From Candidatus Baldrarchaeum yapensis (lineage in GTDB: Archaea; Asgardarchaeota; Baldrarchaeia; Baldrarchaeales; Baldrarchaeaceae): 20,000 nucleotides of DNA. Position numbers and translations under genes: made by a program. A model generated the notes under the pieces. That model was given only the letters and a program-made list of their open reading frames with translations, was not told where the DNA came from and made no database searches. The DNA lies in contig JAEOSH010000001.1 of the NCBI GenBank assembly GCA_016840465.1, forward strand, positions 89,263 to 109,262, in the 5' to 3' direction. Positions 8,247 through 19,520 of the stretch are shown here, in pieces; the first letter of the stretch is position 1; each line of letters starts with the position of its first letter.

Positions 8247-8337
8247 ATATATGCAAGCCTTCCACTTGAGATAATTAGCGATTTTGGTTTTTGTTGCTTG
8301 ACTCTTCACACAAGAAATATGGCATCAGACGTTAAGT

Positions 8338-8344
8338 TTATATG
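8338..8344 (+). promoter_or_regulatory. TATA box for the permuted 5S rRNA transcript
   Basis: TTTATAT lies about 26 nt upstream of the first base of the 12-bp terminal stem (8368), the usual archaeal TATA to +1 distance. Confidence 0.6.
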
Positions 8345-8367
8345 GAGGCTCAACTTCCGCAATTACT

Positions 8368-8527
8368 GGTGCAACGCCGCGTGAGAGTTAAGCCTCCGCA
8401 CGTTCCCGGGAGTACTGTCCTCCGCGAGGGGACGGGAAACCGGGAAGCTGCTCACCCACATGGGTGGGCGGCCATAGTGCGGAGGGCAACACCCGTTCCC
8501 ATTCCGACCACGGAACGGCGTTGCACC
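8368..8527 (+). rRNA. Circularly permuted 5S rRNA precursor; predicted mature circle is 8386-8514 (129 nt)
   Basis: The canonical 3' part (GTTAAGCCTCCGCACGTTCCCGGGAGTACTGTCCTCCGCGAGGGGACGGGAAACCGGGAAGCTGCTCACCC, 8387-8457) comes before the canonical 5' part (GGGTGGGCGGCCATAGTGCGGAGGGCAACACCCGTTCCCATTCCGACCACGGAA, 8462-8515). Helix I 8447-8457/8462-8472, helix II 8477-8485/8393-8401 (9 bp perfect), helix III CCGT/ACGG, helix IV GTCCTC/GGGGAC with GCGA-type loop, helix V TTCCCGG/CCGGGAA. Terminal stem 8368-8379/8516-8527. Confidence 0.93.
8380..8515 (+). promoter_or_regulatory. Bulge-helix-bulge splicing motif pairing the two ends of the permuted 5S transcript
   Basis: Outer stem GGTGCAACGCCG/CGGCGTTGCACC; central 4-bp helix CGTG (8380-8383)/CACG (8509-8512); 3-nt bulges AGA (8384-8386) and GAA (8513-8515); inner pairs GTT (8387-8389)/GAC (8506-8508). 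Predicted cuts are after 8385 and after 8514. Confidence 0.88.
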
Positions 8528-8540
8528 GCTCCTTCTAATA

Positions 8541-8549
8541 CTTTATAAG
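8541..8549 (+). promoter_or_regulatory. TATA box for downstream DUF1512-like gene
   Basis: CTTTATAAG, upstream of the CDS starting at 8601. Confidence 0.5.
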
Positions 8550-8600
8550 TGGTGTCGGATACAAGTAATAACCATGAGCGATGATAAGATGCCGTAGAGG

Positions 8601-9761
8601 ATGATAATTGTGCAACCACTTGTTCAGGAAGAGAGCACATTTGTACAATGGCTGATATTGTTATTCTTCATGATATCCATATTTATGTCAATGTTTTATG
8701 AGAAGATTAGATTTTCCGCTGGAATCAGACAGATAAAGATGGAGTTAATGAAGTTGGAAAGGCTCGCGAAAAACGGAAAAGAGTTGGTAATAAATGCAGT
8801 AAAGGAAATAGGGAAGCCCGGGTTTGATCCAAGTAATAGAATCTTAGAGTTCTTAGAGTTCTTTATGATAGAGCCAGTAGATAGAGATCCTTTTGGTATC
8901 ATGAAAAAGCTAGAGCATCTGATTAATCTGAGAAGGGACGTTTTCCGCAGGTTTCTATCTGAAGTCGCGCCAAATGCGTCGAGGGATGAACGTGCAAACC
9001 TGGAGGGCGCATTAGAGGCCACAATTGTGATAGATTACTTATTTAGACTTGTGAGGCATTATTTGATACTCAGCGAGAGAACTAAGAGTTACATTCTAGT
9101 TGCACAACTGCAGTTGCAACTACCGCTTGTGATGAGATATGCAAAGGCGTACTTTGAGGCTTTAAAGGCATTTAAAGATGGAAAACCGATAGGAGATGGT
9201 ATAGGTGTACTTGTGGCAACGAAATTCGTGTACGATCTTGCGAAGGACGGAGAAAGTAGGGTGACCTTTAAGGAAATCGTAGAAGATACATTGGTTACCG
9301 AGGTAATGTTTGAGGGACGAAAGATTTTCGTTGTAAGAGCAAAGGGACCTGGAGCGTTCGTTGGAAAGCCAGGCGATGCAATTGTTAAAATCATAGAAGA
9401 CTGTAAAGGAAAAAATGACATATCTAGGATCATTATGATCGATGCTGCATTGAAACTTGAAGGAGAGCGTAGCGGTGAGGTTGCTGAGGGTGTTGGGGCA
9501 GCAATAGGTGGCATAGGTGTTGACAGGTTTAAGATAGAGGAAATAGCTACAAAATATGGGATTCCTCTTGATGCAATAATAATTAAGGAGTCCCTAGAGG
9601 AGGCCATTAGCCCACTCAAAAAGGAGATTTTTGAGAGTGTAAATGAGGTAATAAAAAGAATAAAAAGAATTATTCTCCAGTCGACAAAACCCGGGGATGC
9701 AATCATACTTGCTGGTATTGGTAATGCTGCTGGGATAGGCTTCATGAAGCTTTCTTCCTGA
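8601..9761 (+). CDS. DUF1512-like conserved archaeal membrane-anchored protein
   Basis: 386 aa with one N-terminal transmembrane segment and a long conserved soluble region (VVRAKGPGAFVGKPGDAIVKIIE; GVGAAIGGIGVDRFKIEEIA; GDAIILAGIGNAAGIG). Family assigned from memory. Confidence 0.7.
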   Translation: MIIVQPLVQEESTFVQWLILLFFMISIFMSMFYEKIRFSAGIRQIKMELMKLERLAKNGKELVINAVKEIGKPGFDPSNRILEFLEFFMIEPVDRDPFGIMKKLEHLINLRRDVFRRFLSEVAPNASRDERANLEGALEATIVIDYLFRLVRHYLILSERTKSYILVAQLQLQLPLVMRYAKAYFEALKAFKDGKPIGDGIGVLVATKFVYDLAKDGESRVTFKEIVEDTLVTEVMFEGRKIFVVRAKGPGAFVGKPGDAIVKIIEDCKGKNDISRIIMIDAALKLEGERSGEVAEGVGAAIGGIGVDRFKIEEIATKYGIPLDAIIIKESLEEAISPLKKEIFESVNEVIKRIKRIILQSTKPGDAIILAGIGNAAGIGFMKLSS

Positions 9762-9773
9762 TGGTGATGCCAT

Positions 9774-10163
9774 ATGAAAAGATCTTTAATGTCATTGTCG
9801 ATTATGCTCCTCATGTTAGTGGTCTTCTCTGTTATAATATATTTACTTCTTAACTTTGTGGCCACAATGCAAGAGTCTTCGATTTCTCTGTTTATGATGA
9901 TTTTTACGATCCTTATTATTTACTTGATCCTTTTACCAGTAATATCTCAGTTCGCTAGAATGTATAGAGTGGCAAAAATGAGGCAGATTATGCCTTCTCT
10001 GCTGTCGGTGATAAAATGTCAAGATTGCAATTATGTTCTCGTTAGGGAATTTTTAACGGGAGATTATGTGTTTAAGAACGTCGGAAAATGTTATAAGTGC
10101 GGCGGTAATCTCTACATAGACGCAATATACTTAACATCCGAAAAGAAAGGAAAGGGTGCATAA
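9774..10163 (+). CDS. Small membrane protein with C-terminal zinc ribbon, unknown function
   Basis: Two hydrophobic segments, then CQDCNYVLVREFL...GKCYKCGGNLY (CxxC...CxxC). Confidence 0.65.
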   Translation: MKRSLMSLSIMLLMLVVFSVIIYLLLNFVATMQESSISLFMMIFTILIIYLILLPVISQFARMYRVAKMRQIMPSLLSVIKCQDCNYVLVREFLTGDYVFKNVGKCYKCGGNLYIDAIYLTSEKKGKGA

Positions 10164-10166
10164 AAT

Positions 10167-10844
10167 ATGGCGGTGAAACTTACATTCTTAGGTCATGCAG
10201 CATTCAAGATAGATCATGGCGATAAAACTATTCTTATAGATCCCTTCATAACTGGCAATCCTCTCTGCCCGATCAAAGTCGAGGATATAAGGAAGTGCGA
10301 CATAATTCTCGTAACACACGATCATGGAGACCATTTAGGGGACACCATAAAGATCGCGAAAAATACTGGTGCAAAAGTGGTTGCAATATACGATTTAGGA
10401 GTATTTATAGAGAAAAATGGCGTCACCAATGTTATAGGAATGAATATTGGTGGTTCGACCGATATAGACGGAATTAAAGTGACAATGGTAAAGGCGTTCC
10501 ATAGTGCCGAGAGAGGCGCTCCCGTTGGCTATATCATAAGGTTAGGAAATGTTGCAATTTACCACGCAGGCGATACTGACGTATTCTACGATATGAAGTT
10601 AATAGGAGATCTCTATCGACCGGATGTAGCATTACTTCCAATATCAGGATACTACACGATGGGACCCTTGGAGGCCGCATACGCTACCCAATTAATAAAG
10701 CCGAAGATTGCTATTCCCATGCATTACAATACCTTTCCAGTAATTAAGCAAGATCCAAACGTGTTCGCAGAGAATGTAAAGAAATTATGCCCCGAGGTTG
10801 AGGTTAAAATACTAAATCCCGGAGAGACGATTACCATTGGATGA
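10167..10844 (+). CDS. Metallo-beta-lactamase-fold metal-dependent hydrolase (UPF0173-like)
   Basis: LGHAAFKIDHGDKTILIDPFITGNP, VTHDHGDHLGDT, YHAGDTDVFYDMKLI, PMHYNTFPVI. Confidence 0.93.
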   Translation: MAVKLTFLGHAAFKIDHGDKTILIDPFITGNPLCPIKVEDIRKCDIILVTHDHGDHLGDTIKIAKNTGAKVVAIYDLGVFIEKNGVTNVIGMNIGGSTDIDGIKVTMVKAFHSAERGAPVGYIIRLGNVAIYHAGDTDVFYDMKLIGDLYRPDVALLPISGYYTMGPLEAAYATQLIKPKIAIPMHYNTFPVIKQDPNVFAENVKKLCPEVEVKILNPGETITIG

Positions 10845-11343
10845 GTTCAAACTCAAAAAAGTCGGAGTTGCGGGCACGTTTGATAAACTGCATAAGGGTC
10901 ACAAACTTTTACTTTTAACGGCATTTTCTGCAGGAGAAAGAGTAATAATAGGTATTACTTCCGAGAAGTTGATAAAGGGCAAGAAAATGTGCCAAAAGAT
11001 AGCCCCATTTGACGAGAGAGTTAAAAAGGTAAAGGAATTTCTCTCAAGCCGAGGCTTTAAGGATTATAATATAATTAAATTAGACGATCCTTATGGTCCC
11101 GCAATTAATGATCCCTCGATGGACGGATTAGTTGTAACTAGGGAAACCTTAAACAACGCACTCGCTATTAACAAGATTAGAATAAAACAGGGAATGAAAC
11201 CACTTACCTTAATAGTGGTTCCATTGGTACTTGCCGAGGATGGACTTCCAATATCCTCTACTCGTATAAGACTAGGAGAAATAGATGAGAACGGAAAATT
11301 GAAGACGTATTCAGGAGGTTTATGTCGCAATCGAAAGGTGTGA
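10837..11343 (+). CDS. coaD: Phosphopantetheine adenylyltransferase, archaeal type
   Basis: GVAGTFDKLHKGHKLLLLTAF (HxGH-type nucleotidyltransferase), GLVVTRETLNNALAINKIR, ISSTRIRLGEI. Confidence 0.9.
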   Translation: MDEFKLKKVGVAGTFDKLHKGHKLLLLTAFSAGERVIIGITSEKLIKGKKMCQKIAPFDERVKKVKEFLSSRGFKDYNIIKLDDPYGPAINDPSMDGLVVTRETLNNALAINKIRIKQGMKPLTLIVVPLVLAEDGLPISSTRIRLGEIDENGKLKTYSGGLCRNRKV

Positions 11344-11353
11344 GAAGGACTAC

Positions 11354-11360
11354 CTTTTTA
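11354..11360 (+). promoter_or_regulatory. Candidate TATA box for the H/ACA locus
   Basis: T-rich CTTTTTAT-like element about 26-30 nt before 11386, where the GC-rich structured RNA begins. Confidence 0.35.
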
Positions 11361-11385
11361 TTCCGTGTGGAATAATAAGTAATAA

Positions 11386-11496
11386 GCACCCCGCCGCGAA
11401 ATCCGTGCTTGATGGGCTCCCGCACTTTTGAGGCGCGGTGCGTCACCGCATACCGATGAGTGCGGAGTCAACCCAGGCACGGGACAGGCGGGGTGC
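11386..11496 (+). ncRNA. H/ACA-type guide RNA module 1
   Basis: Outer helix GCACCCCGCC (11386-11395)/GGCGGGGTGC (11487-11496). Lower stem TCCGTGC (11402-11408)/GCACGGG (11477-11483) is followed directly by ACA (11484-11486). Pocket TTGATGGG/TCAACCCAG; upper stem CTCC(C)GCAC/GTGCGGAG; GCGGTG CGT CACCGC apical hairpin. Exactly 16 nt lie between the upper stem and ACA. Confidence 0.65.
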
Positions 11497-11497
11497 A

Positions 11498-11602
11498 GGG
11501 GTGGGTGCAGTAAGGGCCCACTACAAGAGAGCCCAGTGGAGAGCGGCGTATGCCGCCCAGTGACACTGGGTGTTAGTCATGTGGGCCACATGCACCCACC
11601 CC
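11498..11602 (+). ncRNA. H/ACA-type guide RNA module 2 with kink-turn
   Basis: Outer helix GGGGTGGGTGCA (11498-11509)/TGCACCCACCCC (11591-11602). Lower stem GGCCCAC (11515-11521)/GTGGGCC (11581-11587) is followed directly by ACA (11588-11590). Pocket TACAAGAGA/GTTAGTCAT; upper stem GCCCAGTG (11531-11538)/CACTGGGT (11564-11571). K-turn with tandem GA (11539-11540)/GA (11562-11563) and AGT 3-nt loop; apical stem GCGGC GTAT GCCGC. Pocket-to-ACA spacing is 16 nt. Confidence 0.75.
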
Positions 11603-11621
11603 AACTTCGTGGTGGTAGCGG

Positions 11622-12470
11622 TTGCGTGTAAAGGTAAAATCATTGAGGGAAATGCTTAAGGAAATTTTTGGTGAAGACATCCCCGCAGACATTCCGAGAA
11701 AATATAAAATTTATGGAGATATTGCTGTAGTTAAGATACCAAGCAAATACCGCCACTTGAAGAAAGAGATTGGAGATCTTATTCTAAAGAACGACCCACG
11801 GATTAGATCGGTCGTAAATATTGAGAAAATTCATGGAACTTTCCGAGAGCCAATAGCTGAGGTCATCGCAGGGGACCCGAATACCGTTACGACTATCATT
11901 GAAAATTCATGTAGGTTCAAGCTTGATGTCGCCAAGCTTATGTTTTGCTTAGGGAACCAGCATGAGCGCGTGCGATTGGCGAATATAGTTTTTTCCGATG
12001 AGGTAGTTGTCGATATGTTCGCGGGGGTCGGACAATTTTCAATACCGATAGCGGTACATTGCAAACCGGAGAGAATATTTGCAATAGAAATTAATCCCAC
12101 AGCGTTTCGCTTCTTAGTAGAAAATATATTTATCAATCACGTCGAGGAAGTAATTTTCCCGATATTGGGCAATTGTAGAGAGGTAATTCCTGCATTCCTG
12201 AAAGGACGTGCCGATAGGATAATAATGGGGTTCATTGAGTACACAAACAGATACTTGGATGCCGCGCTTGTGGCTTTGAGGGATAAAGGAGGAATCATAC
12301 ACTTTCATAACGTTTATAATTCGGAGGACGCTATTGAGATGGCGATTTCCGATATAAAGGATGCCGCAGAAAGATCTAGAAGGAGACTCGTAAAAGTAAT
12401 ACACAAGCGTATAGTGAAGGAGTATGGGCCCAAGCTTGTACATGTTGTGATAGATGCAAAAATAAAATGA
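11622..12470 (+). CDS. Class I SAM-dependent methyltransferase, Trm5/TYW2-like tRNA methyltransferase
   Basis: VVDMFAGVGQFSIPIAVHCKPERIFAIEINPTAFRFLVENIFINHV and HFHNVY are Trm5-family motifs. Start is TTG 11622 or ATG 11652. Confidence 0.87.
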   Translation: MRVKVKSLREMLKEIFGEDIPADIPRKYKIYGDIAVVKIPSKYRHLKKEIGDLILKNDPRIRSVVNIEKIHGTFREPIAEVIAGDPNTVTTIIENSCRFKLDVAKLMFCLGNQHERVRLANIVFSDEVVVDMFAGVGQFSIPIAVHCKPERIFAIEINPTAFRFLVENIFINHVEEVIFPILGNCREVIPAFLKGRADRIIMGFIEYTNRYLDAALVALRDKGGIIHFHNVYNSEDAIEMAISDIKDAAERSRRRLVKVIHKRIVKEYGPKLVHVVIDAKIK

Positions 12471-12542
12471 TAGAAAGTAGTTACGAGATATGTGTCATAA
12501 AACAATTGTTTCAACAAAAATGTACAAATAGAGGTAAGCAGG

Positions 12543-12962
12543 ATGGCAAAGATAATAGATGACGAAAAATTGCTGAAGTTGTTTGATGCCCTTAGAGAGT
12601 CCTCTGAAAAGGGAATACCAATAATCGTGGAAGGAAAACGCGATGAGGATGCTCTGCGAAGTATTGGTATTTGTGGCCAGATAATTAAAGTCGCTGGTCA
12701 AGGTCCATTGAAAGTGGTGGATTCGATGATATCCTCAGGACGAATACCTTCTTCCGTCATAATACTAACTGATCTGGATAGGAAGGGTGACCTGCTTGCA
12801 AGTATGCTTGATGACCTCCTCAGATCGTATGGTATTGTTCCAATTAATGAGTTCAGGTATGAACTCAGAAAAATCGTCGGAGGGCGCATAAAGGGAATTG
12901 AGGAGTTGACTTATCTCCTCGAATTTATCGAGAGAAATTCCCGGAGGCGATACGATGAATAA
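12543..12962 (+). CDS. Small Toprim-domain protein
   Basis: PIIVEGKRDEDALRSIG...VIILTDLDRKGDLLASMLDDLL (Toprim E and DxD motifs). Confidence 0.83.
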   Translation: MAKIIDDEKLLKLFDALRESSEKGIPIIVEGKRDEDALRSIGICGQIIKVAGQGPLKVVDSMISSGRIPSSVIILTDLDRKGDLLASMLDDLLRSYGIVPINEFRYELRKIVGGRIKGIEELTYLLEFIERNSRRRYDE

Positions 12963-14121
12963 AGAAAATTTTGAAACAACAAAATACGTTATAAGGGCAA
13001 GGTTTGAAGTAGATGGGGTTGTTGAGAAGTCTGATGTTATAGGTGCAATTTTCGGCCAGACCGAAGGATTACTTGGTGAGGACCTCGACCTTAGGGAACT
13101 TCAGAGAACGGGGAGAATTGGAAGAATAAAAGTAGAGTTAGAAACTAAGGGCGGTAAAACATCTGGTGTGATAATAATGCCTTCATGCCTTGATAGAGTT
13201 GAGACCGCAATTCTTGCAGCAGCTCTCGAAACAATAGACAGAGTAGGGCCATGTACAGCAAGAGTCTCCCTGGAAAAAATAGAGGACGTCCGCGAAGAGA
13301 AGAGAAAGAAGATTGTACAAAGGGCTGTTGAGATATTAAAAAATTGGGAGTCAAGCTTGCCTGAAACAAAGGAAATTATAGAGCAGGTACTGGATGCTAT
13401 CAGAAGTGCTGAGTTGATAAAGTACGGTCCCGACGAGTTGCCAGCGGGACCGGGCATCGAGGAATCCGATACGATAATAATTGTTGAAGGAAGAGCTGAT
13501 GTTATAAATCTTTTAAAACACGGATTTAAGAACGTGATCGCTGTTGAGGGAACAAATATTCCTAAAACAATCATAGATTTATGTAAAAGAAAGACGGCTA
13601 TCGTTTTTGTAGACGGTGACAGAGGTGGAGAACTTATCCTCAAAGAATTGCTTCAGGTTGCAGATATTGACTATGTTGCAAGGGCACCTCCAGGCAGAGA
13701 GGTTGAGGAATTGACACGTAAAGAGATAATAAAGGCTCTGAGAAATAAGATCCCAGTCGAACAGTATATGCCGGAAAAACAAAGAATCAAGAAGATGCAA
13801 AAGGTTATAAGGGAGAGTATAACGAGGCCGCAAGTGCCGGGACAGATTCTAGAGTTAATCGATAAAGTTAAGGATCTCGGAAAAGCGTTAATTCTGGACG
13901 AAAATTTTAACATTCTCGCGGAAGTTGCTGTTGGGCAGTTATTAGAAGAACTTGGGAGGGTCGAACGCGCAAAGGCTATAGTTTTTGACGGAATAATTAC
14001 ACAGCGCTTAGTGGATTTAGCGTATGAGAAGGGTGTAGAATACATAATTGGTGCAGTCAAAAGGGATTTGACAAAACAACCCGCTGAAATGTCGATTTTA
14101 ACATTTGATACTCTCGAATAA
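12955..14121 (+). CDS. dnaG: Archaeal DnaG-like primase
   Basis: Toprim core IIVEGRADVINLLKHGFKNVIAVEG, TAIVFVDGDRGGELILKELLQ, DYVARAPPGREVEELT. N-terminus TTKYVIRARFEVDGVVEKSDVIGAIFGQTEGLLGEDLDLRELQ. Confidence 0.95.
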   Translation: MNKENFETTKYVIRARFEVDGVVEKSDVIGAIFGQTEGLLGEDLDLRELQRTGRIGRIKVELETKGGKTSGVIIMPSCLDRVETAILAAALETIDRVGPCTARVSLEKIEDVREEKRKKIVQRAVEILKNWESSLPETKEIIEQVLDAIRSAELIKYGPDELPAGPGIEESDTIIIVEGRADVINLLKHGFKNVIAVEGTNIPKTIIDLCKRKTAIVFVDGDRGGELILKELLQVADIDYVARAPPGREVEELTRKEIIKALRNKIPVEQYMPEKQRIKKMQKVIRESITRPQVPGQILELIDKVKDLGKALILDENFNILAEVAVGQLLEELGRVERAKAIVFDGIITQRLVDLAYEKGVEYIIGAVKRDLTKQPAEMSILTFDTLE

Positions 14122-14138
14122 GACAATTAGGTGGAAGA

Positions 14139-14816
14139 ATGAAGGTTGCATGCGTAATCCCTGCATATAATGAGGAGCCAAATATAGGTCATGTTGTTAA
14201 GGGAGCCAAAAAGTACTGCGACCTTGTAATTGTCGTTGATGATGGAAGTACAGATAGGACGTCCCTTGAGGCGAAAAGAGAGGGCGCTATCGTCATCAGG
14301 CATCAGAGAAATCTGGGTAAAGGGGCAGCACTAAGAACAGGGTTTAAAAGTGCAATCGAGCATGGAGCCGACGTTATCGTGGTTATAGATGGCGATGGTC
14401 AACATGACCCGAATGAAATTCCCAAGCTTGTACAAGCATTACTTAACCGCGACGCAGATATCGTCATAGGTTCCCGATTCCTTAAGAGACAGCTGAGCGG
14501 AATGCCTCCTCAAAGGATACTTAGTAACTTCCTGACAACAACGATATTGAAACTCTTATTTGGCATTAAAATAACAGATTCGCAGTGCGGATTTCGTGCC
14601 TTCAAACGTACTGCACTAGAAAAGCTTATTGATTTTGAGGATAATAAGTATGCGGCCGAGACCGAGATATTAATAAACGCAAAAAGATACGGCTTCAAAA
14701 TAATCGAAGTTGGTATTAGTGTCAAGTATGGGGAGGAAGAGTCAAAAATACGACCTATCAGAGATACCGTTAGATGGATACGTTTAGTATTCAAAAAATT
14801 TTTTGAAAAACAGTAG
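14139..14816 (+). CDS. Family 2 glycosyltransferase (dolichyl-phosphate mannose synthase-like)
   Basis: VIPAYNEEPNIGHVV, VVDDGSTDRTS, DGDGQHDPNEIPKL, SRFLKRQLSGMP. Confidence 0.93.
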   Translation: MKVACVIPAYNEEPNIGHVVKGAKKYCDLVIVVDDGSTDRTSLEAKREGAIVIRHQRNLGKGAALRTGFKSAIEHGADVIVVIDGDGQHDPNEIPKLVQALLNRDADIVIGSRFLKRQLSGMPPQRILSNFLTTTILKLLFGIKITDSQCGFRAFKRTALEKLIDFEDNKYAAETEILINAKRYGFKIIEVGISVKYGEEESKIRPIRDTVRWIRLVFKKFFEKQ

Positions 14817-14828
14817 AGTTCAGCGGCT

Positions 14829-15725
14829 TTACTCCTTACTTACCATTTTTGATATCAGTTCCCACTGCCTATCGACCCATCTCTGTATTTCCTCTATATC
14901 CTCTCTCGTTAAGTGAGAAAATCTTCCCTGCAGCTTTAGGTACTCCTCGACAGGTAGCCTTTTTTCTGGATCCAGCAACGCCTTGCTGGGACCTGTTAAA
15001 CGGAATTTTCCGTCCTCAACTTCATATAGTACCCACATTCCAGTTCTCACCGCCAATCGTGATATTTTCACTGTTAATTTGGAATCAAATCTCCAACCTG
15101 GGGGGCATGGGGCAAGTATATGTATGTATCTGGTCGCGCCACGTTTTTCTTTCGCTTTTTTCACTTTTCTGAAAAGGTCATGCGGGTATCCACTTGTCGC
15201 CGTGGCGACATACGGTATATCATGAGCGATCATTATTCTTGGCATGTTCTTTTTGTGTTCACGCTTGCCGAGAATAGGAGTTGTTGTTGTTATAGCTCCG
15301 TACGGGGTTGCTCCACTTCGCTGGATGCCAGTGTTCATATATGCTTCATTGTCATAACATATGTAAATGAAATCTGTTTGCCTTTCGGCGGCTCCGGATA
15401 GAGCCTGAATGCCTATATCAACAGTACCCCCGTCACCCGCCCATACAAGAACCGTTGCGTCCTTACCTCTCGCCTTCAAGGCAGCAACTATACCTGATGC
15501 TGCCGCTGCTGCAGCAGCAAACGCTATATTTAGAACGGGGATTCCTATTGCGCTCTTAGGATAGAGTCCCATGAAAACGGACGTGCAACACGCTGGAACC
15601 ACCATTATGCTCTTCTTTCCTAGGGCTTTTAACACCCACCTAAGCGCCATTGTCGCACCACAACCGGGACAACTCGCATTACCTGGGTAAAAGTATTCTT
15701 CCAGAGGATACCTTTGTGCCGACAT
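14829..15725 (-). CDS. porB: Pyruvate/2-oxoacid:ferredoxin oxidoreductase beta subunit
   Basis: GNASCPGCGATMALRWVLKALG, WAGDGGTVDIGIQALSGAAER, CYDNEAYMNTGIQRSGATP. Confidence 0.95.
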   Translation of the reverse strand: MSAQRYPLEEYFYPGNASCPGCGATMALRWVLKALGKKSIMVVPACCTSVFMGLYPKSAIGIPVLNIAFAAAAAAASGIVAALKARGKDATVLVWAGDGGTVDIGIQALSGAAERQTDFIYICYDNEAYMNTGIQRSGATPYGAITTTTPILGKREHKKNMPRIMIAHDIPYVATATSGYPHDLFRKVKKAKEKRGATRYIHILAPCPPGWRFDSKLTVKISRLAVRTGMWVLYEVEDGKFRLTGPSKALLDPEKRLPVEEYLKLQGRFSHLTREDIEEIQRWVDRQWELISKMVSKE

Positions 15726-15727
15726 TT

Positions 15728-16930
15728 TTAATCACCCTTAAGTCCGACCCATTCACAGATGAAACCTTCTTTTTCCTCCTCAAGTGCTTTAAATGCCCTC
15801 ATAAATAATTCAGCCTGCATATCTGGAGTAACGTCTCTTCCTCCGATTCCAACTATGAAATTCATTATTAATGGAGGATTCTTTTCACCGTAGAGCGCTG
15901 CGGCAATATCTGCAGCACTTATCCCGCAGTATCCATAACTCGCATTTCTATCGACTACTACCAGCACTTTTACTCTCCTTCCGATTCTTATGAAGTCCTC
16001 ATATGGAAAGGGCCTGTAAACTCTGAGTTTTACCGACCCGACTTGGTAACCTTGTTCTCTTAACATATCAACGACGTACTTTGCTTGAGCCGCGAGCGTT
16101 CCCATGGATACCATTACGACTTCAGCATCGTTTGTTCTATATTCCTCTACTAATGCTCCATGATATCTTCCGAACATTCTCTTGAAATCATCAGCAGCCT
16201 TTTTTATTTTATCTTTAGCTTTTAGCATTCCTACCTGCATGAGATATCTATATTCCATGTATCCGACTTGTGTGCCTACGGCTTCTGCTAGAACGATGTT
16301 CCCATGAGTGACGGGATTGTCCACGTCACTGATGTCAAACGGAGGCTCATACGGAGGTAAGTACTCTTCAACTTCCTTTTCGCTTAGTACGTGAACCGGT
16401 TGGTACGTATGACTTAGAAGGAATCCATCGCCACATACCATTGCTGGCATTCTCACCTCCGGATCCTCAGCAACCCGGTACGCCTGTATTATTGTGTCAA
16501 AGAACTCTTGGTTACTTTCAACGTAGAATTGAATCCAGCCAGTGTCCCGTTGTGATAGACTATCTATATGATCCGGCCATATATTCCATGGAGGCCCCAT
16601 TGCTCTATTTATAACCGCCATAACAATAGGGAGCCTCGCCCCCGCTGCCCAGTGAAGCATCTCATGCATATAGGCAAGTCCATGCGCGGAAGTTGCTGTA
16701 AACGCACGTGCTCCTGCTGCAGACGCGCCGATACATGCTGCCATTGCGCTGTGTTCGGACTCTACTCTCACGTACTCGCACTTCATTTCTCCCCTCTCTA
16801 TAAGTTCCGCTATTTTCTCGACAATCGATGTTTGAGGTGTTATAGGGTATGCCGCAACCACCTGTACCCTTGCCGCTTTAGCAGCATAAGCTGCGCTATA
16901 ATTCCCGGTGAGTATCATCACTTCTCCCAT
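15728..16930 (-). CDS. porA: Pyruvate/2-oxoacid:ferredoxin oxidoreductase alpha subunit
   Basis: GNYSAAYAAKAARVQVVAAYPITPQTSIVEKIAELI, ESEHSAMAACIGASAAGARAFTATSAHGLAYMHEM. Confidence 0.95.
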   Translation of the reverse strand: MGEVMILTGNYSAAYAAKAARVQVVAAYPITPQTSIVEKIAELIERGEMKCEYVRVESEHSAMAACIGASAAGARAFTATSAHGLAYMHEMLHWAAGARLPIVMAVINRAMGPPWNIWPDHIDSLSQRDTGWIQFYVESNQEFFDTIIQAYRVAEDPEVRMPAMVCGDGFLLSHTYQPVHVLSEKEVEEYLPPYEPPFDISDVDNPVTHGNIVLAEAVGTQVGYMEYRYLMQVGMLKAKDKIKKAADDFKRMFGRYHGALVEEYRTNDAEVVMVSMGTLAAQAKYVVDMLREQGYQVGSVKLRVYRPFPYEDFIRIGRRVKVLVVVDRNASYGYCGISAADIAAALYGEKNPPLIMNFIVGIGGRDVTPDMQAELFMRAFKALEEEKEGFICEWVGLKGD

Positions 16931-17223
16931 TCTACTACCTCCCTCTCAACTTTTATTGCGTCATATGGGCACTCCTCAACACACACAAGACAGCCCTTGC
17001 AATAATTGTAGTTTATCCTTGGTCCTTCATCCTTCGAAAAAACTATAGCGTTCTCCGGACAATAAGTCCAACACATGCCACACTTTTTGCACTTCTCATA
17101 ATTAATGACAGGGCGTTCAGCCCTCCACCGACCCGTCATTCCCATAGATCCAGGGCCTGGCCTCGAGAGTGGTGTTGGCGGAATTTCCTTCATCCACTCA
17201 TAGTTCTTCACAACAATTTTCAA
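16918..17223 (-). CDS. porD: Pyruvate/2-oxoacid:ferredoxin oxidoreductase delta (2x[4Fe-4S] ferredoxin) subunit
   Basis: CKKCGMCWTYCPENAIVF and CKGCLVCVEECPYDAI. Confidence 0.93.
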   Translation of the reverse strand: MKIVVKNYEWMKEIPPTPLSRPGPGSMGMTGRWRAERPVINYEKCKKCGMCWTYCPENAIVFSKDEGPRINYNYCKGCLVCVEECPYDAIKVEREVVEWEK

Positions 17224-17856
17224 GGGGACATCACCACCGTCTTTTCATACGCGATACGTGCGGCCTTTGCATTAAGTTCTGCAAGTTCTCCCTCCCATTC
17301 CTTTAATATTACGGATAGCACTGATTCTATCCTGACTATCCCGGTGGCCTTGGAAAAGGCGCCCAGCATTGGTGTAATCCCCGGGTGAGGAAAACCCTCA
17401 CCCTTTGAGGACAGGAATCCCAGCAACCTTCAATCCTAGATCCAAAGCTATTTTTGTGGCGTCTACTGTCGCTATCTTGTACTTTGGGGGAATTCCCATC
17501 TCTAAAAGTTCCTCTGGTTGTTTTGATATGTTAACTACCAGCATTCCCCCATTCCTCAAGCCTTCTAACACGTTTACCATACCGAGTAATGAGGGGTCCA
17601 GTACGACAACTACATCTGGGTTGTAAATTTGGCTACGTAGGTGGATTTTTTTGGAAGATATCCGTGTAAAGGCAGTTACTGGTGCACCTCTCCGCTCCGC
17701 TCCAAAGAACGGAAATGCCTGTACATCCTTATATCCATCGATATATGCGGCCTTTGCGAGAAGTTCTGCTGCTGTTACAGCGCCCTGACCTCCTCTTCCA
17801 TGCCAGCGGACCTCTATAATCTCCACATTTGAGTTCATAAACTTATCACCTAGCAC
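17220..17856 (-). CDS. porG: Pyruvate/2-oxoacid:ferredoxin oxidoreductase gamma subunit, interrupted; proposed join complement(17220..17376,17405..17856)
   Basis: Exon 1 has VRWHGRGGQGAVTAAELLAKAA...FGAERRGAPVTAFTRI...GLKVAGIPVL. Exon 2 has TPMLGAFSKATGIVRIESV. The two lie in different frames, separated by 28 nt. The joined length is 609 nt = 203 codons. Confidence 0.87.
17377..17404 (-). other. 28-nt BHB (archaeal splicing endonuclease-type) intron in porG
   Basis: Minus strand: TGT-CCTC-AAA-GGGTGAGG-GTTTT-CCTCACCC-GGGG-ATT-ACA. Outer helix TGT/ACA, central CCTC/GGGG, bulges AAA and ATT, inner 8-bp helix. Cutting AA^A and AT^T gives GTC CTC AAT ACA CCA = VLNTP. Confidence 0.85.
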
Positions 17857-19034: not shown

Positions 19035-19328
19035 ATGGATCTAACGAAATTTCAGGAACTCATGCGAAAACTATACTTTGATAAGGATAAAAAGAGAGGA
19101 GTTTTCAAGACGTTTGCATGGCTTGTTCAAGAGGTGGGAGAACTAGGTAGAGCACTTTTGAATGGAAACAGGGATGCGATAATGGAGGAGATGGGAGATG
19201 TTCTTGCATGGTTGTCAAGCTTAGCTAATATTTTAGATATAGATTTGTCGGAAGCCGCTCAGAGGAAATATCCAGGTGTTTGTCCCAAATGCGGGTGCAA
19301 GCCCTGCCGATGTCCCGAAAACGTGTAA
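19035..19328 (+). CDS. MazG-like nucleotide pyrophosphohydrolase
   Basis: FKTFAWLVQEVGELGRALLNG...EEMGDVLAWLSSLANILDIDL (EExxE/ExxD-type motif), with a C-terminal CPKCGCKPCRCP zinc-binding-like tail. Confidence 0.85.
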   Translation: MDLTKFQELMRKLYFDKDKKRGVFKTFAWLVQEVGELGRALLNGNRDAIMEEMGDVLAWLSSLANILDIDLSEAAQRKYPGVCPKCGCKPCRCPENV

Positions 19329-19520
19329 GCGGTTAAGATGCAAATTTTTAACAAACTTTGTAACATATGACCAATTACACGGTTCTTAGCGATTCCTTTT
19401 ATTCATTGGCAATGTTGTCGTAATATTGCCCAATAATAATCTTATAAAATATTAGCATCTTTTTGGGAAGCTTTATGGGTCAAAATCGTTGCCAAAAGAC
19501 GTATTTTACCAAGATATAAT

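What the first reader, a model, noticed from the sequence alone, without database searches (positions are those of the whole stretch)
8368..17404. Expanded BHB processing in one genome: 5S rRNA and an mRNA within 10 kb
Two independent, near-ideal BHB motifs outside tRNA genes sit in one 20-kb window. This suggests a splicing endonuclease with broad specificity (alpha2beta2-type or similar) and that many more genes in this genome are interrupted, permuted or split. Automated annotation would call them missing or frameshifted.
Basis: inference. Interest (0 to 1): 0.75.

Follow-up and report, generated by a model that had tools for sequence, protein, structure and literature searches.

The report
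Permuted 5S rRNA gene plus mRNA intron
In this Asgard archaeon the 5S ribosomal RNA gene is encoded back-to-front and must be cut and rejoined (probably into a circle) by the tRNA-splicing machinery, and a nearby metabolic gene carries a 28-base intron of the same type; the back-to-front 5S turns out to be shared by several Asgard classes, is invisible to standard annotation, and I found no report of it.

Summary
Both observations are real and lie exactly where stated. (1) 8367-8528 (+) is a circularly permuted 5S rRNA gene: 3' half, 4-nt cap, 5' half. A 13-bp leader/trailer helix, a 4-bp helix (CGUG/CACG) and two 3-nt bulges flank it. Cutting after the second bulge base and ligating gives a 129-nt RNA whose junction restores the 5S consensus CGGA|AGUUAAGC. 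Rfam misses it (25.7 bits; threshold 38). Re-ordered, it matches ordinary archaeal 5S end to end (72.5 bits). Ten distinct variants exist in Baldr-, Odin-, Asgardarchaeia-, Heimdall- and Frey/Jord-type genomes. Covariation is strong: 95.7% paired versus 71% when shuffled, and the outer helix covaries at 9 of 10 positions. Helix I is always capped by a short loop, so a circular mature 5S is the most likely product (inferred). (2) 17404-17377 (-) is a 28-nt canonical BHB intron in the pyruvate:ferredoxin oxidoreductase gamma gene. Removing it restores the frame and the invariant Asn-Thr. It is species-specific and identical in at least 12 independent contigs. Asgard archaea are reported to have the broad-specificity (alpha-beta)2 endonuclease. 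However, I found no other interrupted protein gene in about 173 kb, and this genome's SRP RNA is canonical. The two features are best read as unrelated events.

The parts
8334..8346 (+). BRE/TATA-like promoter box (TAAGTTTATATGG) about 25 nt upstream of the leader helix
   Evidence: Read directly from the sequence. A comparable A/T box lies 25-35 nt upstream of the outer helix in all 10 variants. Promoter function is inferred.
8367..8379 (+). 5' leader strand of the outer (processing) helix, UGGUGCAACGCCG
   Evidence: Pairs with 8516-8528. The outer-helix columns are 100% paired in 10 sequences, with compensatory changes at 9 of 10 positions.
8380..8383 (+). BHB central helix, 5' strand (CGUG)
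   Evidence: Pairs with CACG 8509-8512. Invariant in 7 variants. Replaced by CCGY/GCGG, shifted by 1 nt, in the Heimdall type.
8384..8386 (+). 5' bulge AGA; predicted cut between 8385 and 8386
   Evidence: Geometry. The cut position comes from the rule 'after the second bulge base' (my knowledge of EndA). The rule is validated internally because it yields the 5S consensus junction.
8386..8457 (+). 5S rRNA 3' half (helix III 3' end, helix II 3' strand, helices V/IV with loop E, helix I 3' strand)
   Evidence: Rfam partial hit 8381-8456. Matches positions 51-116 of a profile built from ordinary archaeal 5S genes. Helices supported by covariation.
8458..8461 (+). 4-nt cap (ACAU) closing helix I, where a normal 5S has its free ends
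   Evidence: The relatives have UUCG (5 lineages), UACG, CUCG, CACG or UUU(G) at this position.
8462..8514 (+). 5S rRNA 5' half (helix I 5' strand, loop A CCAUAG, helix II, helix III with loop C CCCAUUCCGA)
   Evidence: Rfam partial hits at 8464-8563 and 8464-8534. Matches profile positions 4-50.
8509..8512 (+). BHB central helix, 3' strand (CACG); also part of mature 5S helix III
8513..8515 (+). 3' bulge GAA; predicted cut between 8514 and 8515
   Evidence: Joining 8514 to 8386 gives CCACGGA|AGUUAAGCC.
8516..8528 (+). 3' trailer strand of the outer helix, CGGCGUUGCACCG
17405..17838 (-). porG exon 1 (434 nt; Met1 to the first two bases of the Asn145 codon)
   Evidence: Translation. Pfam POR domain.
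17411..17413 (-). Exon-side helix h, 5' strand (UGU); pairs with ACA 17375-17373
   Evidence: Three WC pairs, which meets the hBHBh' definition of at least 2 WC pairs (PMC7714728).
17407..17410 (-). BHB central helix, 5' strand (CCUC); pairs with GGGG 17382-17379 (one U.G pair)
   Evidence: This helix is also present in the predicted MFE fold.
17377..17404 (-). 28-nt BHB intron AGGGUGAGGGUUUUCCUCACCCGGGGAU. It contains the in-frame UGA that truncates the annotated ORF, and an 8-bp hairpin (h').
   Evidence: Identical in contigs from independent assemblies.
17220..17376 (-). porG exon 2 (157 nt; third base of the Asn145 codon to the stop). Its end overlaps the start of the delta-subunit gene (16918-17223).
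   Evidence: The spliced CDS is 591 nt and encodes 196 aa. It matches Pfam POR 1-173/173 and aligns without gaps to 11 homologues.

Best explanation
The window comes from a Candidatus Baldrarchaeia (Asgard) genome. It holds two unrelated substrates of the archaeal tRNA-splicing endonuclease (EndA) that are not tRNAs.

(A) The 5S rRNA gene is circularly permuted. A short transcript with its own promoter carries, in order: leader, 5S 3' half, 4-nt cap, 5S 5' half, trailer. Leader and trailer pair into a 13-bp helix, which continues into a 4-bp helix flanked by two 3-nt bulges (a BHB). EndA cuts inside both bulges. The RNA ligase RtcB then joins the 2',3'-cyclic phosphate and 5'-OH ends of the excised 129-nt piece. 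This recreates the continuous helix III / helix II strand (CGGA|AGUUAAGC) that the gene order had broken. Helix I is closed by a stable short loop in every lineage, so the most likely mature product is a covalently closed circular 5S rRNA. The arrangement is ancient and is shared by at least five Asgard groups.

(B) The gamma subunit gene of a four-subunit pyruvate/2-oxoacid:ferredoxin oxidoreductase operon carries a 28-nt canonical hBHBh' intron. EndA and RtcB remove it from the mRNA, which joins AA|U into the invariant Asn145 codon and restores the last 51 residues. This intron is a recent, species-level gain.

Shown here: gene order, BHB geometry, covariation, the junction logic, conservation, and the annotation failure. 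Inferred: cleavage by EndA, ligation, circularity of the mature 5S, and splicing of the mRNA.
For: Source organism.

5S gene:
- The two halves are detected separately and in permuted order.
- The re-ordered sequence matches a profile of Rfam-verified archaeal 5S genes end to end: positions 4-116 of 120, at 72.5 bits for the window and 52-84 bits for the others. In native order it splits exactly at profile position 50/51.
- The re-ordered RNA folds into the three-way 5S shape.
- The precursor folds far better than shuffles (z = -5.6, 0 of 200 shuffles as good). The BHB conformer is only 1.6 kcal/mol above the MFE.
- Ten distinct variants were found by synteny and pattern scans.
- RNAalifold recovers the outer helix and helices I-V de novo.
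- Pair counts: 95.7% paired versus 71.3% shuffled (0 of 500 shuffles as high) and 33-47% in slid controls; 33 of 43 pairs show compensatory change; the outer helix is 100% paired.
- Two BHB registers, 1 nt apart, both regenerate CGGAAGUYAAGC.
- A permuted-5S covariance model scores the permuted units 115-167 bits and ordinary 5S genes at most 46 bits.
- Ordinary archaeal 5S genes score 57-103 bits on RF00001; none of the permuted ones reaches the threshold.

porG intron:
- The spliced protein covers Pfam POR 1-173/173.
- It aligns without gaps to 11 intron-less homologues. The junction lies inside invariant N145, next to invariant T146.
- The interruption is identical in at least 12 contigs from independent assemblies.
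- Exon 2 keeps all the invariant residues.

Precedents from the literature: a permuted SRP RNA gene processed by EndA into a functional circle (PMC4731332); the cbf5 mRNA intron (PMC2738675); Asgard (alpha-beta)2 EndA with the L1 loop (PMC5829648).
Against: - No RNA data: cleavage, ligation, circularity and mRNA splicing are all inferred.
- The porG BHB is not statistically unusual on geometry. It is also not the predicted MFE fold: -19.0 versus -23.9 kcal/mol.
- The helix on the mature-RNA side of the 5' bulge exists only in the window, L025 and L085. In the other 7 of 10 variants the motif is bulge-helix-loop-like, and cleavage of that form by an Asgard EndA is untested.
- I could not check whether the genome also has a conventional 5S gene elsewhere.
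- The cut position within the bulges rests on my own knowledge plus internal consistency, not on a cited experiment.
Confidence: 0.8

Rival explanations
1. The permuted 5S is cut and ligated as described, but the circle is only an intermediate. It is re-opened at or near the helix I cap to give a conventional linear 5S, as happens with permuted tRNA genes and with circular pre-16S/23S rRNA.
For: Circular pre-rRNAs are classically re-linearised, and permuted tRNA circles are opened at the acceptor ends (background in PMC12918454; PMC4267664). The window's own cap (ACAU) is not a classical stable tetraloop.
Against: The linker is only 3-4 nt and sits directly on a perfect helix I in all 10 variants. 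In 8 of 10 it is a UNCG/YNMG-type stable loop, which looks selected for closure rather than for cleavage. The A/U-rich motif used for 5S end-processing in methanogens (PMC10515664) is absent from the 3-4-nt cap. The Thermoproteus SRP RNA stays circular (PMC4731332), and circular 23S is reported inside ribosomes (PMC12918454).
Confidence: 0.2
2. EndA excises the piece but it is never ligated. The mature 5S is then a linear, permuted molecule with its ends in helix III and a capped helix I.
For: Permuted final 5S molecules exist in brown-algal mitochondria, so a ribosome can tolerate re-wired 5S connectivity (PMC4267664).
Against: All known archaeal EndA products are ligated by RtcB: tRNA exons, intron circles, rRNA circles and SRP RNA (established knowledge; PMC4731332, PMC10515664). 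Both BHB registers conserve nucleotide-exact continuity of CGGAAGUYAAGC. The break would fall in a conserved protein-binding strand.
Confidence: 0.08
3. The permuted locus is a non-functional rearranged relic or mobile 5S-derived element, and the real 5S gene lies elsewhere in each genome.
For: Whole genomes could not be searched here. The locus fails RF00001.
Against: - Ten lineages spanning several Asgard classes keep every conserved 5S loop motif.
- 33 of 43 pairs show compensatory substitutions.
- Each has its own TATA-like box.
- Synteny next to DUF1512 is conserved in Baldr-type genomes.
- No canonical 5S is seen in any fetched Asgard locus, including the one next to a 23S gene.
Confidence: 0.03
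4. The porG interruption is not spliced. It is decoded by a +1 ribosomal frameshift through the insert, or by a gene-60-like translational bypass. Alternatively the gene is a pseudogene, or is expressed as two polypeptides.
For: - The +1 frame is open through the insert; the product would be ...VLK/GEGFPHPGITPML..., 205 aa.
- The insert has a take-off GGG, an immediate UGA stop, a hairpin, and a landing GGG 22 nt on.
- The BHB geometry is not significant by itself.
- The BHB conformer is 4.9 kcal/mol above the MFE.
Against: - Only BHB excision reproduces invariant N145 and the gapless family alignment.
- The frameshift product would add 9 residues and the bypass product 2. Both lose the invariant Asn.
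- Exon 2 keeps all invariant residues, and the operon (gamma, delta, alpha, beta) is otherwise intact with a coupled stop/start. This argues against a pseudogene.
- The locus differs by only 1-3 SNPs over 2.1-3.5 kb between samples.
- The motif meets the canonical hBHBh' definition.
Confidence: 0.12

Closest known systems
Permuted SRP RNA gene of Thermoproteus tenax (Plagens et al. 2015, eLife; PMC4731332)
   Same: A universal structured ncRNA is encoded with its 3' part before its 5' part. [quoted passage not shown] In that case the mature RNA is a functional circle, which is the outcome I predict here.
   Different: The RNA is different: 5S rRNA, a ribosome component. The distribution is also different: several classes of Asgard archaea rather than a few Thermoproteus species. 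There is no RNA evidence here. This genome's own SRP RNA is canonical.
Circularly permuted tRNA genes (Cyanidioschyzon merolae; Thermofilum; cited within PMC4267664 and PMC5829648)
   Same: The 3' half lies upstream of the 5' half. A BHB is formed by the flanks, and processing goes through EndA, ligase and a circular intermediate.
   Different: tRNA circles are re-opened by RNase P and tRNase Z at a removable linker. Here the linker is a 3-4-nt cap stacked on helix I, with no evident opening signal.
BHB-dependent circular pre-16S/pre-23S rRNA, and circular or permuted 23S in mature ribosomes (PMC7758197, PMC12918454)
   Same: A leader/trailer processing helix contains a BHB. EndA and RtcB circularise an rRNA, and some circles persist in ribosomes.
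   Different: Those genes are collinear, so circularisation is not needed to restore their sequence order. The literature states explicitly that this pathway applies to 16S and 23S 'but not 5S rRNAs' (PMC12918454). Known 5S maturation uses other nucleases (PMC10515664).
Permuted mitochondrial 5S rRNA of brown algae (Valach et al. 2014; PMC4267664)
   Same: Helix I is replaced by a closed hairpin, so the 5S connectivity is re-wired.
   Different: In the organelle case both the gene and the final RNA are permuted, with an open three-way junction and no BHB, cutting or ligation. Here the break is in helix III and is predicted to be healed by ligation.
cbf5 pre-mRNA intron of Crenarchaeota (Watanabe et al. 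2002; Yokobori et al. 2009, PMC2738675) and the single EndA-cleaved mRNA of Haloferax (PMC7714728)
   Same: A short BHB intron lies inside a protein-coding gene. Its removal restores the reading frame, it has a lineage-specific distribution, and gene callers mis-annotate the gene.
   Different: The host gene is different (a metabolic enzyme subunit, porG, rather than an RNA-modification enzyme) and so is the phylum (Asgard). The intron is only 28 nt and is restricted to one species-level lineage. Splicing has not been shown experimentally.

Membership tests
5S rRNA (Rfam RF00001) | Scores at or above the Rfam gathering threshold (38 bits) in genomic order | tested here: not met
   25.7 bits over the whole window. 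The two halves score 23.4 and 15.8 bits separately. The same failure occurs in 5 relatives, while ordinary archaeal 5S genes score 57-103 bits. The failure is explained by the permuted gene order.
5S rRNA (Rfam RF00001) | Full-length sequence homology to bona fide 5S once the order is restored | tested here: met
   Against an nhmmer profile of 7 Rfam-verified archaeal 5S genes, the re-ordered window sequence scores 72.5 bits over profile positions 4-116 of 120. In native order it splits at position 50/51.
5S rRNA (Rfam RF00001) | Three-way junction with helices I-V, supported by covariation, plus the conserved loop A, loop C and loop E motifs | tested here: met
   RNAalifold and pair counts on 10 sequences show helices II-V 86-100% paired, with compensatory changes. 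CCAUAG, CCCAU and CGA are invariant and GUAC nearly so (one column varies in the two Heimdall-type sequences); GGGAA is conserved in 8 of 10 (GCGAA in those two).
Canonical BHB (hBHBh') substrate of archaeal splicing endonuclease | A 4-bp helix flanked by two 3-nt bulges on opposite strands (definition in PMC7714728) | tested here: met
   5S: CGUG/CACG with bulges AGA and GAA. porG: CCUC/GGGG with bulges AAA and AUU.
Canonical BHB (hBHBh') substrate of archaeal splicing endonuclease | Both flanking helices have at least 2 Watson-Crick pairs | tested here: met
   Window 5S: 12 WC pairs in the outer helix; inner helix GUU/GAC has 2 WC pairs plus 1 G.U. porG: outer helix 3 WC pairs, inner helix 8 WC pairs. 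In 7 of 10 5S relatives the inner helix is absent, so the motif is relaxed there.
Canonical BHB (hBHBh') substrate of archaeal splicing endonuclease | Actual cleavage by EndA and ligation by RtcB | not testable with these tools
   Needs RNA-seq junction reads or an in vitro assay.
Permuted, EndA-processed ncRNA genes (tRNA, SRP RNA) | The 3' part is encoded upstream of the 5' part, and the flanks form the BHB so that ligation restores the functional order | tested here: met
   The junction regenerates CGGAAGUYAAGC in two registers.
Permuted, EndA-processed ncRNA genes (tRNA, SRP RNA) | A circular RNA species is detected | not testable with these tools
[quoted passage not shown] | Excision at the BHB restores the reading frame and collinearity with intron-less homologues | tested here: met
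   The 28-nt excision gives a 196-aa protein that covers Pfam POR 1-173/173. It aligns without gaps to 11 homologues, and invariant N145/T146 are recreated at the junction.
[quoted passage not shown] | BHB motif more significant than chance | tested here: inconclusive
   Geometry of this quality occurs in 67% of shuffled windows. Its significance comes only from the exact position.
(alpha-beta)2 splicing endonuclease with L1 loop (broad specificity) | Alpha and beta subunit genes present in this genome | not tested
   Neither gene is in the window or its extensions. The literature reports this type for Asgard archaea generally (PMC5829648).

The most novel reading that the evidence does not exclude
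In several Asgard classes (Baldr, Odin, Asgardarchaeia, Heimdall-type, Frey/Jord) the only 5S rRNA gene is circularly permuted. The 5S rRNA that sits in the ribosome is then a covalently closed circle made by the tRNA-splicing endonuclease and RtcB. This would make ribosome biogenesis in the closest archaeal relatives of eukaryotes strictly dependent on the tRNA splicing machinery. It would also mean the trait was present early in Asgard evolution.
Probability: 0.5. Interest if true: 0.9.

Novelty: new variant of a known kind. Interest (0 to 1): 0.82.

Why it matters
1. 5S rRNA is one of the most conserved and most easily annotated genes. A whole group of lineages in which it is encoded back-to-front explains why standard tools (Rfam/Infernal-based annotation, MAG quality criteria that require a 5S) would report it as missing in these genomes. 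Model R1 or the pattern scans used here offer a fix.
2. Current reviews and primary papers state that BHB/EndA circularisation concerns archaeal 16S and 23S but not 5S. This locus contradicts that for Asgard archaea.
3. If the mature 5S is circular, it would be the first circular 5S in a ribosome. It would also tie ribosome assembly to the tRNA splicing enzymes in the lineage from which eukaryotes arose.
4. The porG intron adds a second kind of protein gene, in a new phylum, to the very short list of archaeal mRNA BHB introns. It shows that such introns can be gained recently.

Tried and rejected
1. Generic BHB scanning as a significance test. With G.U pairs allowed, the counts in the window equal those in shuffles. 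It is useful only when combined with function.
2. A third BHB candidate at 19226-19460 (11+4 WC pairs, no inner helix). Rejected: it is AT-rich, motifs that good (at least 15 WC pairs) occur in 45% of shuffles, and it would delete the C-terminus of an intact MazG gene.
3. An ORF-repair screen for more mRNA introns in about 173 kb of Asgard DNA, plus a 7.7-kb extension of this genome. The eight other hits in the 173 kb were adjacent-gene fusions, non-coding frames or rRNA sequence, and the single extra hit in the extension fuses an antisense frame onto the NAC gene.
4. A search for the porG intron in relatives. All homologues at or below 65% identity are uninterrupted. Cluster variant P0124 could not be fetched.
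5. A permuted SRP RNA in this genome. It is canonical.
6. Most of the 76 genome-scan hits were ordinary bacterial or archaeal 5S genes with a chance upstream match. L093 and L095 from the metagenome scan are chance matches in coding sequence.
7. ARAGORN on the related loci. It is uninformative because it misses intron-containing tRNAs.
8. Extending the window to the right. The contig that was returned ended after about 2 kb.
9. Literature searches for a prior report of a permuted or BHB-processed archaeal 5S. None was found in the searchable library. Subscription-only papers are not covered.

Full report
**What the window is.** The proteins of the window are exact matches to a MAG that NCBI names Candidatus Baldrarchaeia archaeon (Asgard archaea; GCA_054386075.1 and other assemblies). 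The gene content is archaeal housekeeping: PolB, Pelota, an M50 protease, DUF1512, TYW2/Trm5, a DnaG-like Toprim protein, a four-subunit pyruvate/2-oxoacid:ferredoxin oxidoreductase operon, and ZPR1. At default thresholds neither Rfam nor ARAGORN reports any RNA gene.

**Checking the observation.** The finding's two end coordinates are exact. 8368 is the first Watson-Crick pair of a leader/trailer helix, and 17404 is the first base of an insert in porG on the minus strand.

On each strand the archaeal bulge-helix-bulge motif reads, 5' to 3': flanking helix, 4-nt central helix, 3-nt bulge, flanking helix (definition in PMC7714728). Both sites have this layout.
- 5S site: UGGUGCAACGCCG-CGUG-AGA-GUU ... 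GAC-CACG-GAA-CGGCGUUGCACCG.
- porG site: UGU-CCUC-AAA-[8-bp hairpin]-GGGG-AUU-ACA.

On statistics the picture is mixed. A scanner for this geometry finds as many motifs in dinucleotide shuffles as in the window when G.U pairs are allowed. Scored by Watson-Crick content, a motif as good as the 5S one (18 WC pairs) appears in 2 of 60 shuffled windows. One as good as the porG motif (14 WC pairs) appears in 67% of them. Geometry alone therefore does not carry the porG case. Position and function do.

**The 5S site is a circularly permuted 5S rRNA gene.**
- Rfam gives only a sub-threshold hit (25.7 bits against a threshold of 38) covering the 5' half at 8464-8563. A focused scan finds the 3' half upstream, at 8381-8456.
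- Cutting after the second base of each bulge excises 8386-8514 (129 nt). Joining its ends gives ...CCACGGA|AGUUAAGCC..., which is the universal 5S sequence CGGAAGUUAAGC.
- Re-opened at helix I, the RNA folds into the canonical three-armed 5S shape.
- I built a profile only from seven ordinary archaeal 5S genes that pass Rfam. In native order the sequence splits into profile positions 51-116 followed by 4-50. In restored order it matches positions 4-116 of 120 at 72.5 bits.
- The precursor folds much better than shuffles (z = -5.6). The conformer with the full BHB is within 1.6 kcal/mol of the optimum.
- A BRE/TATA-like box lies about 25 nt upstream of the leader, and the trailer is followed by T-rich sequence. 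The unit is therefore probably a small independent transcript. This is an inference.

**It is conserved across Asgard archaea.**
- Synteny through the neighbouring DUF1512 gene led to the same arrangement in two Baldr-type contigs and in an Odinarchaeia MAG.
- A degenerate pattern scan of 185,579 species genomes gave 76 hits. Most are ordinary 5S genes with a chance upstream match. The true permuted cases are Baldrarchaeota, Candidatus Asgardarchaeum abyssi (class Asgardarchaeia), two Heimdallarchaeota-labelled MAGs, an unclassified MAG with four copies at contig ends, and a MAG labelled 'Thermoproteota'.
- The 'Thermoproteota' MAG is in fact Freyarchaeota/Jordarchaeia-like. Its TrpRS is 99% identical to a Freyarchaeota protein.
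- A metagenome scan added two more variants.
- In all ten distinct sequences the same cutting rule gives CGGAAGUYAAGC. The Heimdall type does so even though its BHB is shifted by one nucleotide (central helix CCGY/GCGG, bulges AAG/AAA).
- RNAalifold on the aligned precursors recovers the outer helix and 5S helices I-V without guidance.
- The pair count gives 95.7% paired cells, against 71.3% in column shuffles (0 of 500 as high) and 33-47% when partners are slid. 33 of 43 pairs show compensatory change. The outer helix is 100% paired and covaries at 9 of 10 positions.
- A covariance model of the permuted precursor scores all permuted units 115-167 bits and ordinary 5S genes at most 46 bits.
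- RF00001 scores ordinary archaeal 5S genes 57-103 bits and gives no gathering-level hit for any of the five permuted relatives tested or for the window.
- In one lineage the permuted gene lies about 670 nt from the 5' end of a full-length 23S gene, in divergent orientation.
- No canonical 5S was seen in any Asgard locus I fetched. I could not search whole genomes.

**How it most likely works.** The closest precedent is the permuted SRP RNA gene of Thermoproteus tenax. There the tRNA splicing endonuclease processes the circularisation site, and the ligated circular RNA is the functional form (PMC4731332).

By analogy, EndA would cut both bulges and RtcB would ligate the excised piece. Half of the BHB (CACG-GAA) is itself mature 5S sequence. 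In the finished RNA that sequence pairs within helix III, so the leader's CGUG acts as a temporary partner.

Helix I, where a normal 5S has its two ends, is closed by a 3-4-nt loop in every lineage. Eight of ten have a UNCG/YNMG-type stable tetraloop (UUCG in five, plus UACG, CUCG and CACG). L025 has UUU(G) and the window has ACAU. There is no spacer or obvious opening signal. I therefore think a covalently closed circular 5S is the most likely mature form (about 0.6). Re-opening at the cap comes next (about 0.2), and then an unligated permuted molecule (under 0.1). None of this can be decided from DNA.

In 7 of 10 variants there is no helix on the mature-RNA side of the 5' bulge. That makes the motif bulge-helix-loop-like. 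This fits the (alpha-beta)2 EndA with the L1 loop reported for Asgard archaea (PMC5829648), but it does not prove that this enzyme is used.

**The porG site is a 28-nt BHB intron.**
- The annotated ORF (17398-17856, minus strand) stops at a UGA inside a hairpin, and the rest of the protein continues in another frame.
- Excising 17404-17377 joins CUC AA|U ACA. The result is a 196-aa protein that covers the Pfam POR domain from position 1 to 173 of 173.
- This protein aligns without gaps to eleven uninterrupted homologues. The junction falls inside invariant Asn145, next to invariant Thr146.
- The motif meets the canonical hBHBh' definition: 3 and 8 WC pairs in the flanking helices.
- The interruption is identical in at least 12 contigs from independent assemblies. 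Gene callers always split the gene into 152-aa and 68-aa fragments, and NCBI gives the truncated product no accession.
- All homologues at or below 65% identity lack the insert, so it is a recent, lineage-specific gain.

Rivals for porG. The +1 frame is open through the insert. The insert also has gene-60-like features: a GGG take-off codon, an immediate UGA stop, a hairpin, and a GGG landing codon 22 nt further on. Both alternatives would add residues and destroy the invariant Asn, so I rate them together with 'pseudogene' at about 0.12. Two caveats apply. The BHB conformer is 4.9 kcal/mol above the predicted optimum, and the geometry alone is not significant.

**The wider claim.** The support for this is limited.
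- In favour: Asgard EndA is reported to be the broad-specificity type. tRNA genes in related loci carry large or multiple insertions, including at non-anticodon positions, and an intron-blind tRNA finder misses them.
- Against: an ORF-repair screen of about 173 kb recovered only porG, with no enrichment over random cuts. A 7.7-kb extension of the same contig contains no further case.

The 5S permutation is ancient and clade-wide, while the porG intron is recent. Their proximity is best read as coincidence.

**Prior knowledge.** I found no paper describing a permuted or BHB-processed archaeal 5S gene.
- The only 'permuted 5S' paper concerns organelle 5S whose final RNA is permuted, with no cutting or ligation (PMC4267664).
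- A 2026 paper states that excision and circularisation applies to archaeal 16S and 23S 'but not 5S rRNAs' (PMC12918454).
- Characterised archaeal 5S maturation uses other nucleases (PMC10515664).
- mRNA BHB introns are known essentially from cbf5 in Crenarchaeota, plus one EndA-cleaved mRNA in Haloferax (PMC2738675; PMC7714728).

The library does not cover most subscription journals, so prior description cannot be excluded.

**Verdict.** The permuted 5S is a new variant of a known mechanism (EndA/ligase rescue of permuted RNA genes), applied to a ribosomal RNA and spread across Asgard archaea. The porG intron is a new member of the rare class of archaeal mRNA BHB introns.

Noticed in passing
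window 11327-11595 (+): An H/ACA-type guide RNA candidate lies between the cytidylyltransferase-like gene and the TYW2/Trm5 gene. It scores 28 bits on HgcG/Pab40 and 36 bits on Pyrobac-1, both below threshold. The same element sits upstream of the TYW2 gene in L006 (4472-4730) and L007 (1-125).
   Followed up: partly
L101 14277-14593 (same genome, about 2 kb left of the window start): A canonical, full-length, unpermuted archaeal SRP RNA gene (182 bits, model 1-317/317). Not all structured RNAs of this genome are rearranged.
   Followed up: yes
window 12543-12962 and 12955-14121 (+): A DnaG-like Toprim protein is encoded as two overlapping ORFs (139 aa and 388 aa). L006 has the same two-ORF arrangement, so the split is conserved. 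There is no BHB at the boundary.
   Followed up: partly
L005 1843-1963; L007 10369-10536; L025 374-508; L054 4443-4566; L091 4480-4572 and 4744-4852: tRNA genes in related Asgard loci are 93-168 nt long, with one or two large insertions, including at non-anticodon positions. Rfam finds them, but ARAGORN finds none of the first four and calls only L091 4480-4575, as tRNA-SeC. This fits frequent non-canonical tRNA introns in these lineages.
   Followed up: partly
L017, L023, L028, L036 (MAG 'archaeon Dive96_bin2.176'): Four contigs of one MAG begin or end inside an identical permuted 5S unit. This suggests a multi-copy 5S gene that breaks the assembly.
   Followed up: no
L091 273-3356 and 4013-4164; L088 (same sequence): A complete 23S rRNA gene stands without a 16S gene within the about 650 nt separating its 5' end from the permuted 5S. 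The 5S is divergently oriented and is followed by two intron-length tRNAs. The rRNA genes therefore appear to be unlinked in this lineage.
   Followed up: partly
L076 (JAPDJY010000015.1): This MAG is deposited as 'Thermoproteota archaeon'. It carries a permuted 5S, and its TrpRS is 99% identical to a Candidatus Freyarchaeota protein and 64-66% identical to Jordarchaeaceae proteins. The label is probably wrong.
   Followed up: yes
L005 5190-5362 (-) and L006 931-1103 (-): Weak tmRNA/tRNA-clan hits (27.5 bits) lie a few hundred bases upstream of the permuted 5S in two Baldr-type contigs. They may be a disrupted or intron-rich tRNA. I did not examine them.
   Followed up: no
window 17377-17412 (-): The porG insert also resembles a translational bypass element: a GGG codon, an immediate UGA stop, an 8-bp hairpin, and a second GGG 22 nt further on in the downstream frame. 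I judged this a coincidence, because the bypass product would lack the invariant Asn.
   Followed up: yes
window 19226-19460 (+): An AT-rich inverted repeat with BHB-like bulges (11+4 WC pairs, no G.U pairs) spans the end of the MazG gene and the intergenic region. Motifs that good (at least 15 WC pairs) occur in 45% of shuffled windows. It is probably chance or a terminator-like element.
   Followed up: yes
window 9774-10163 (+): A 129-aa ORF (called as 119 aa) with no Pfam match. It is conserved immediately downstream of DUF1512 in this genome and in L005, L006 and L007.
   Followed up: no
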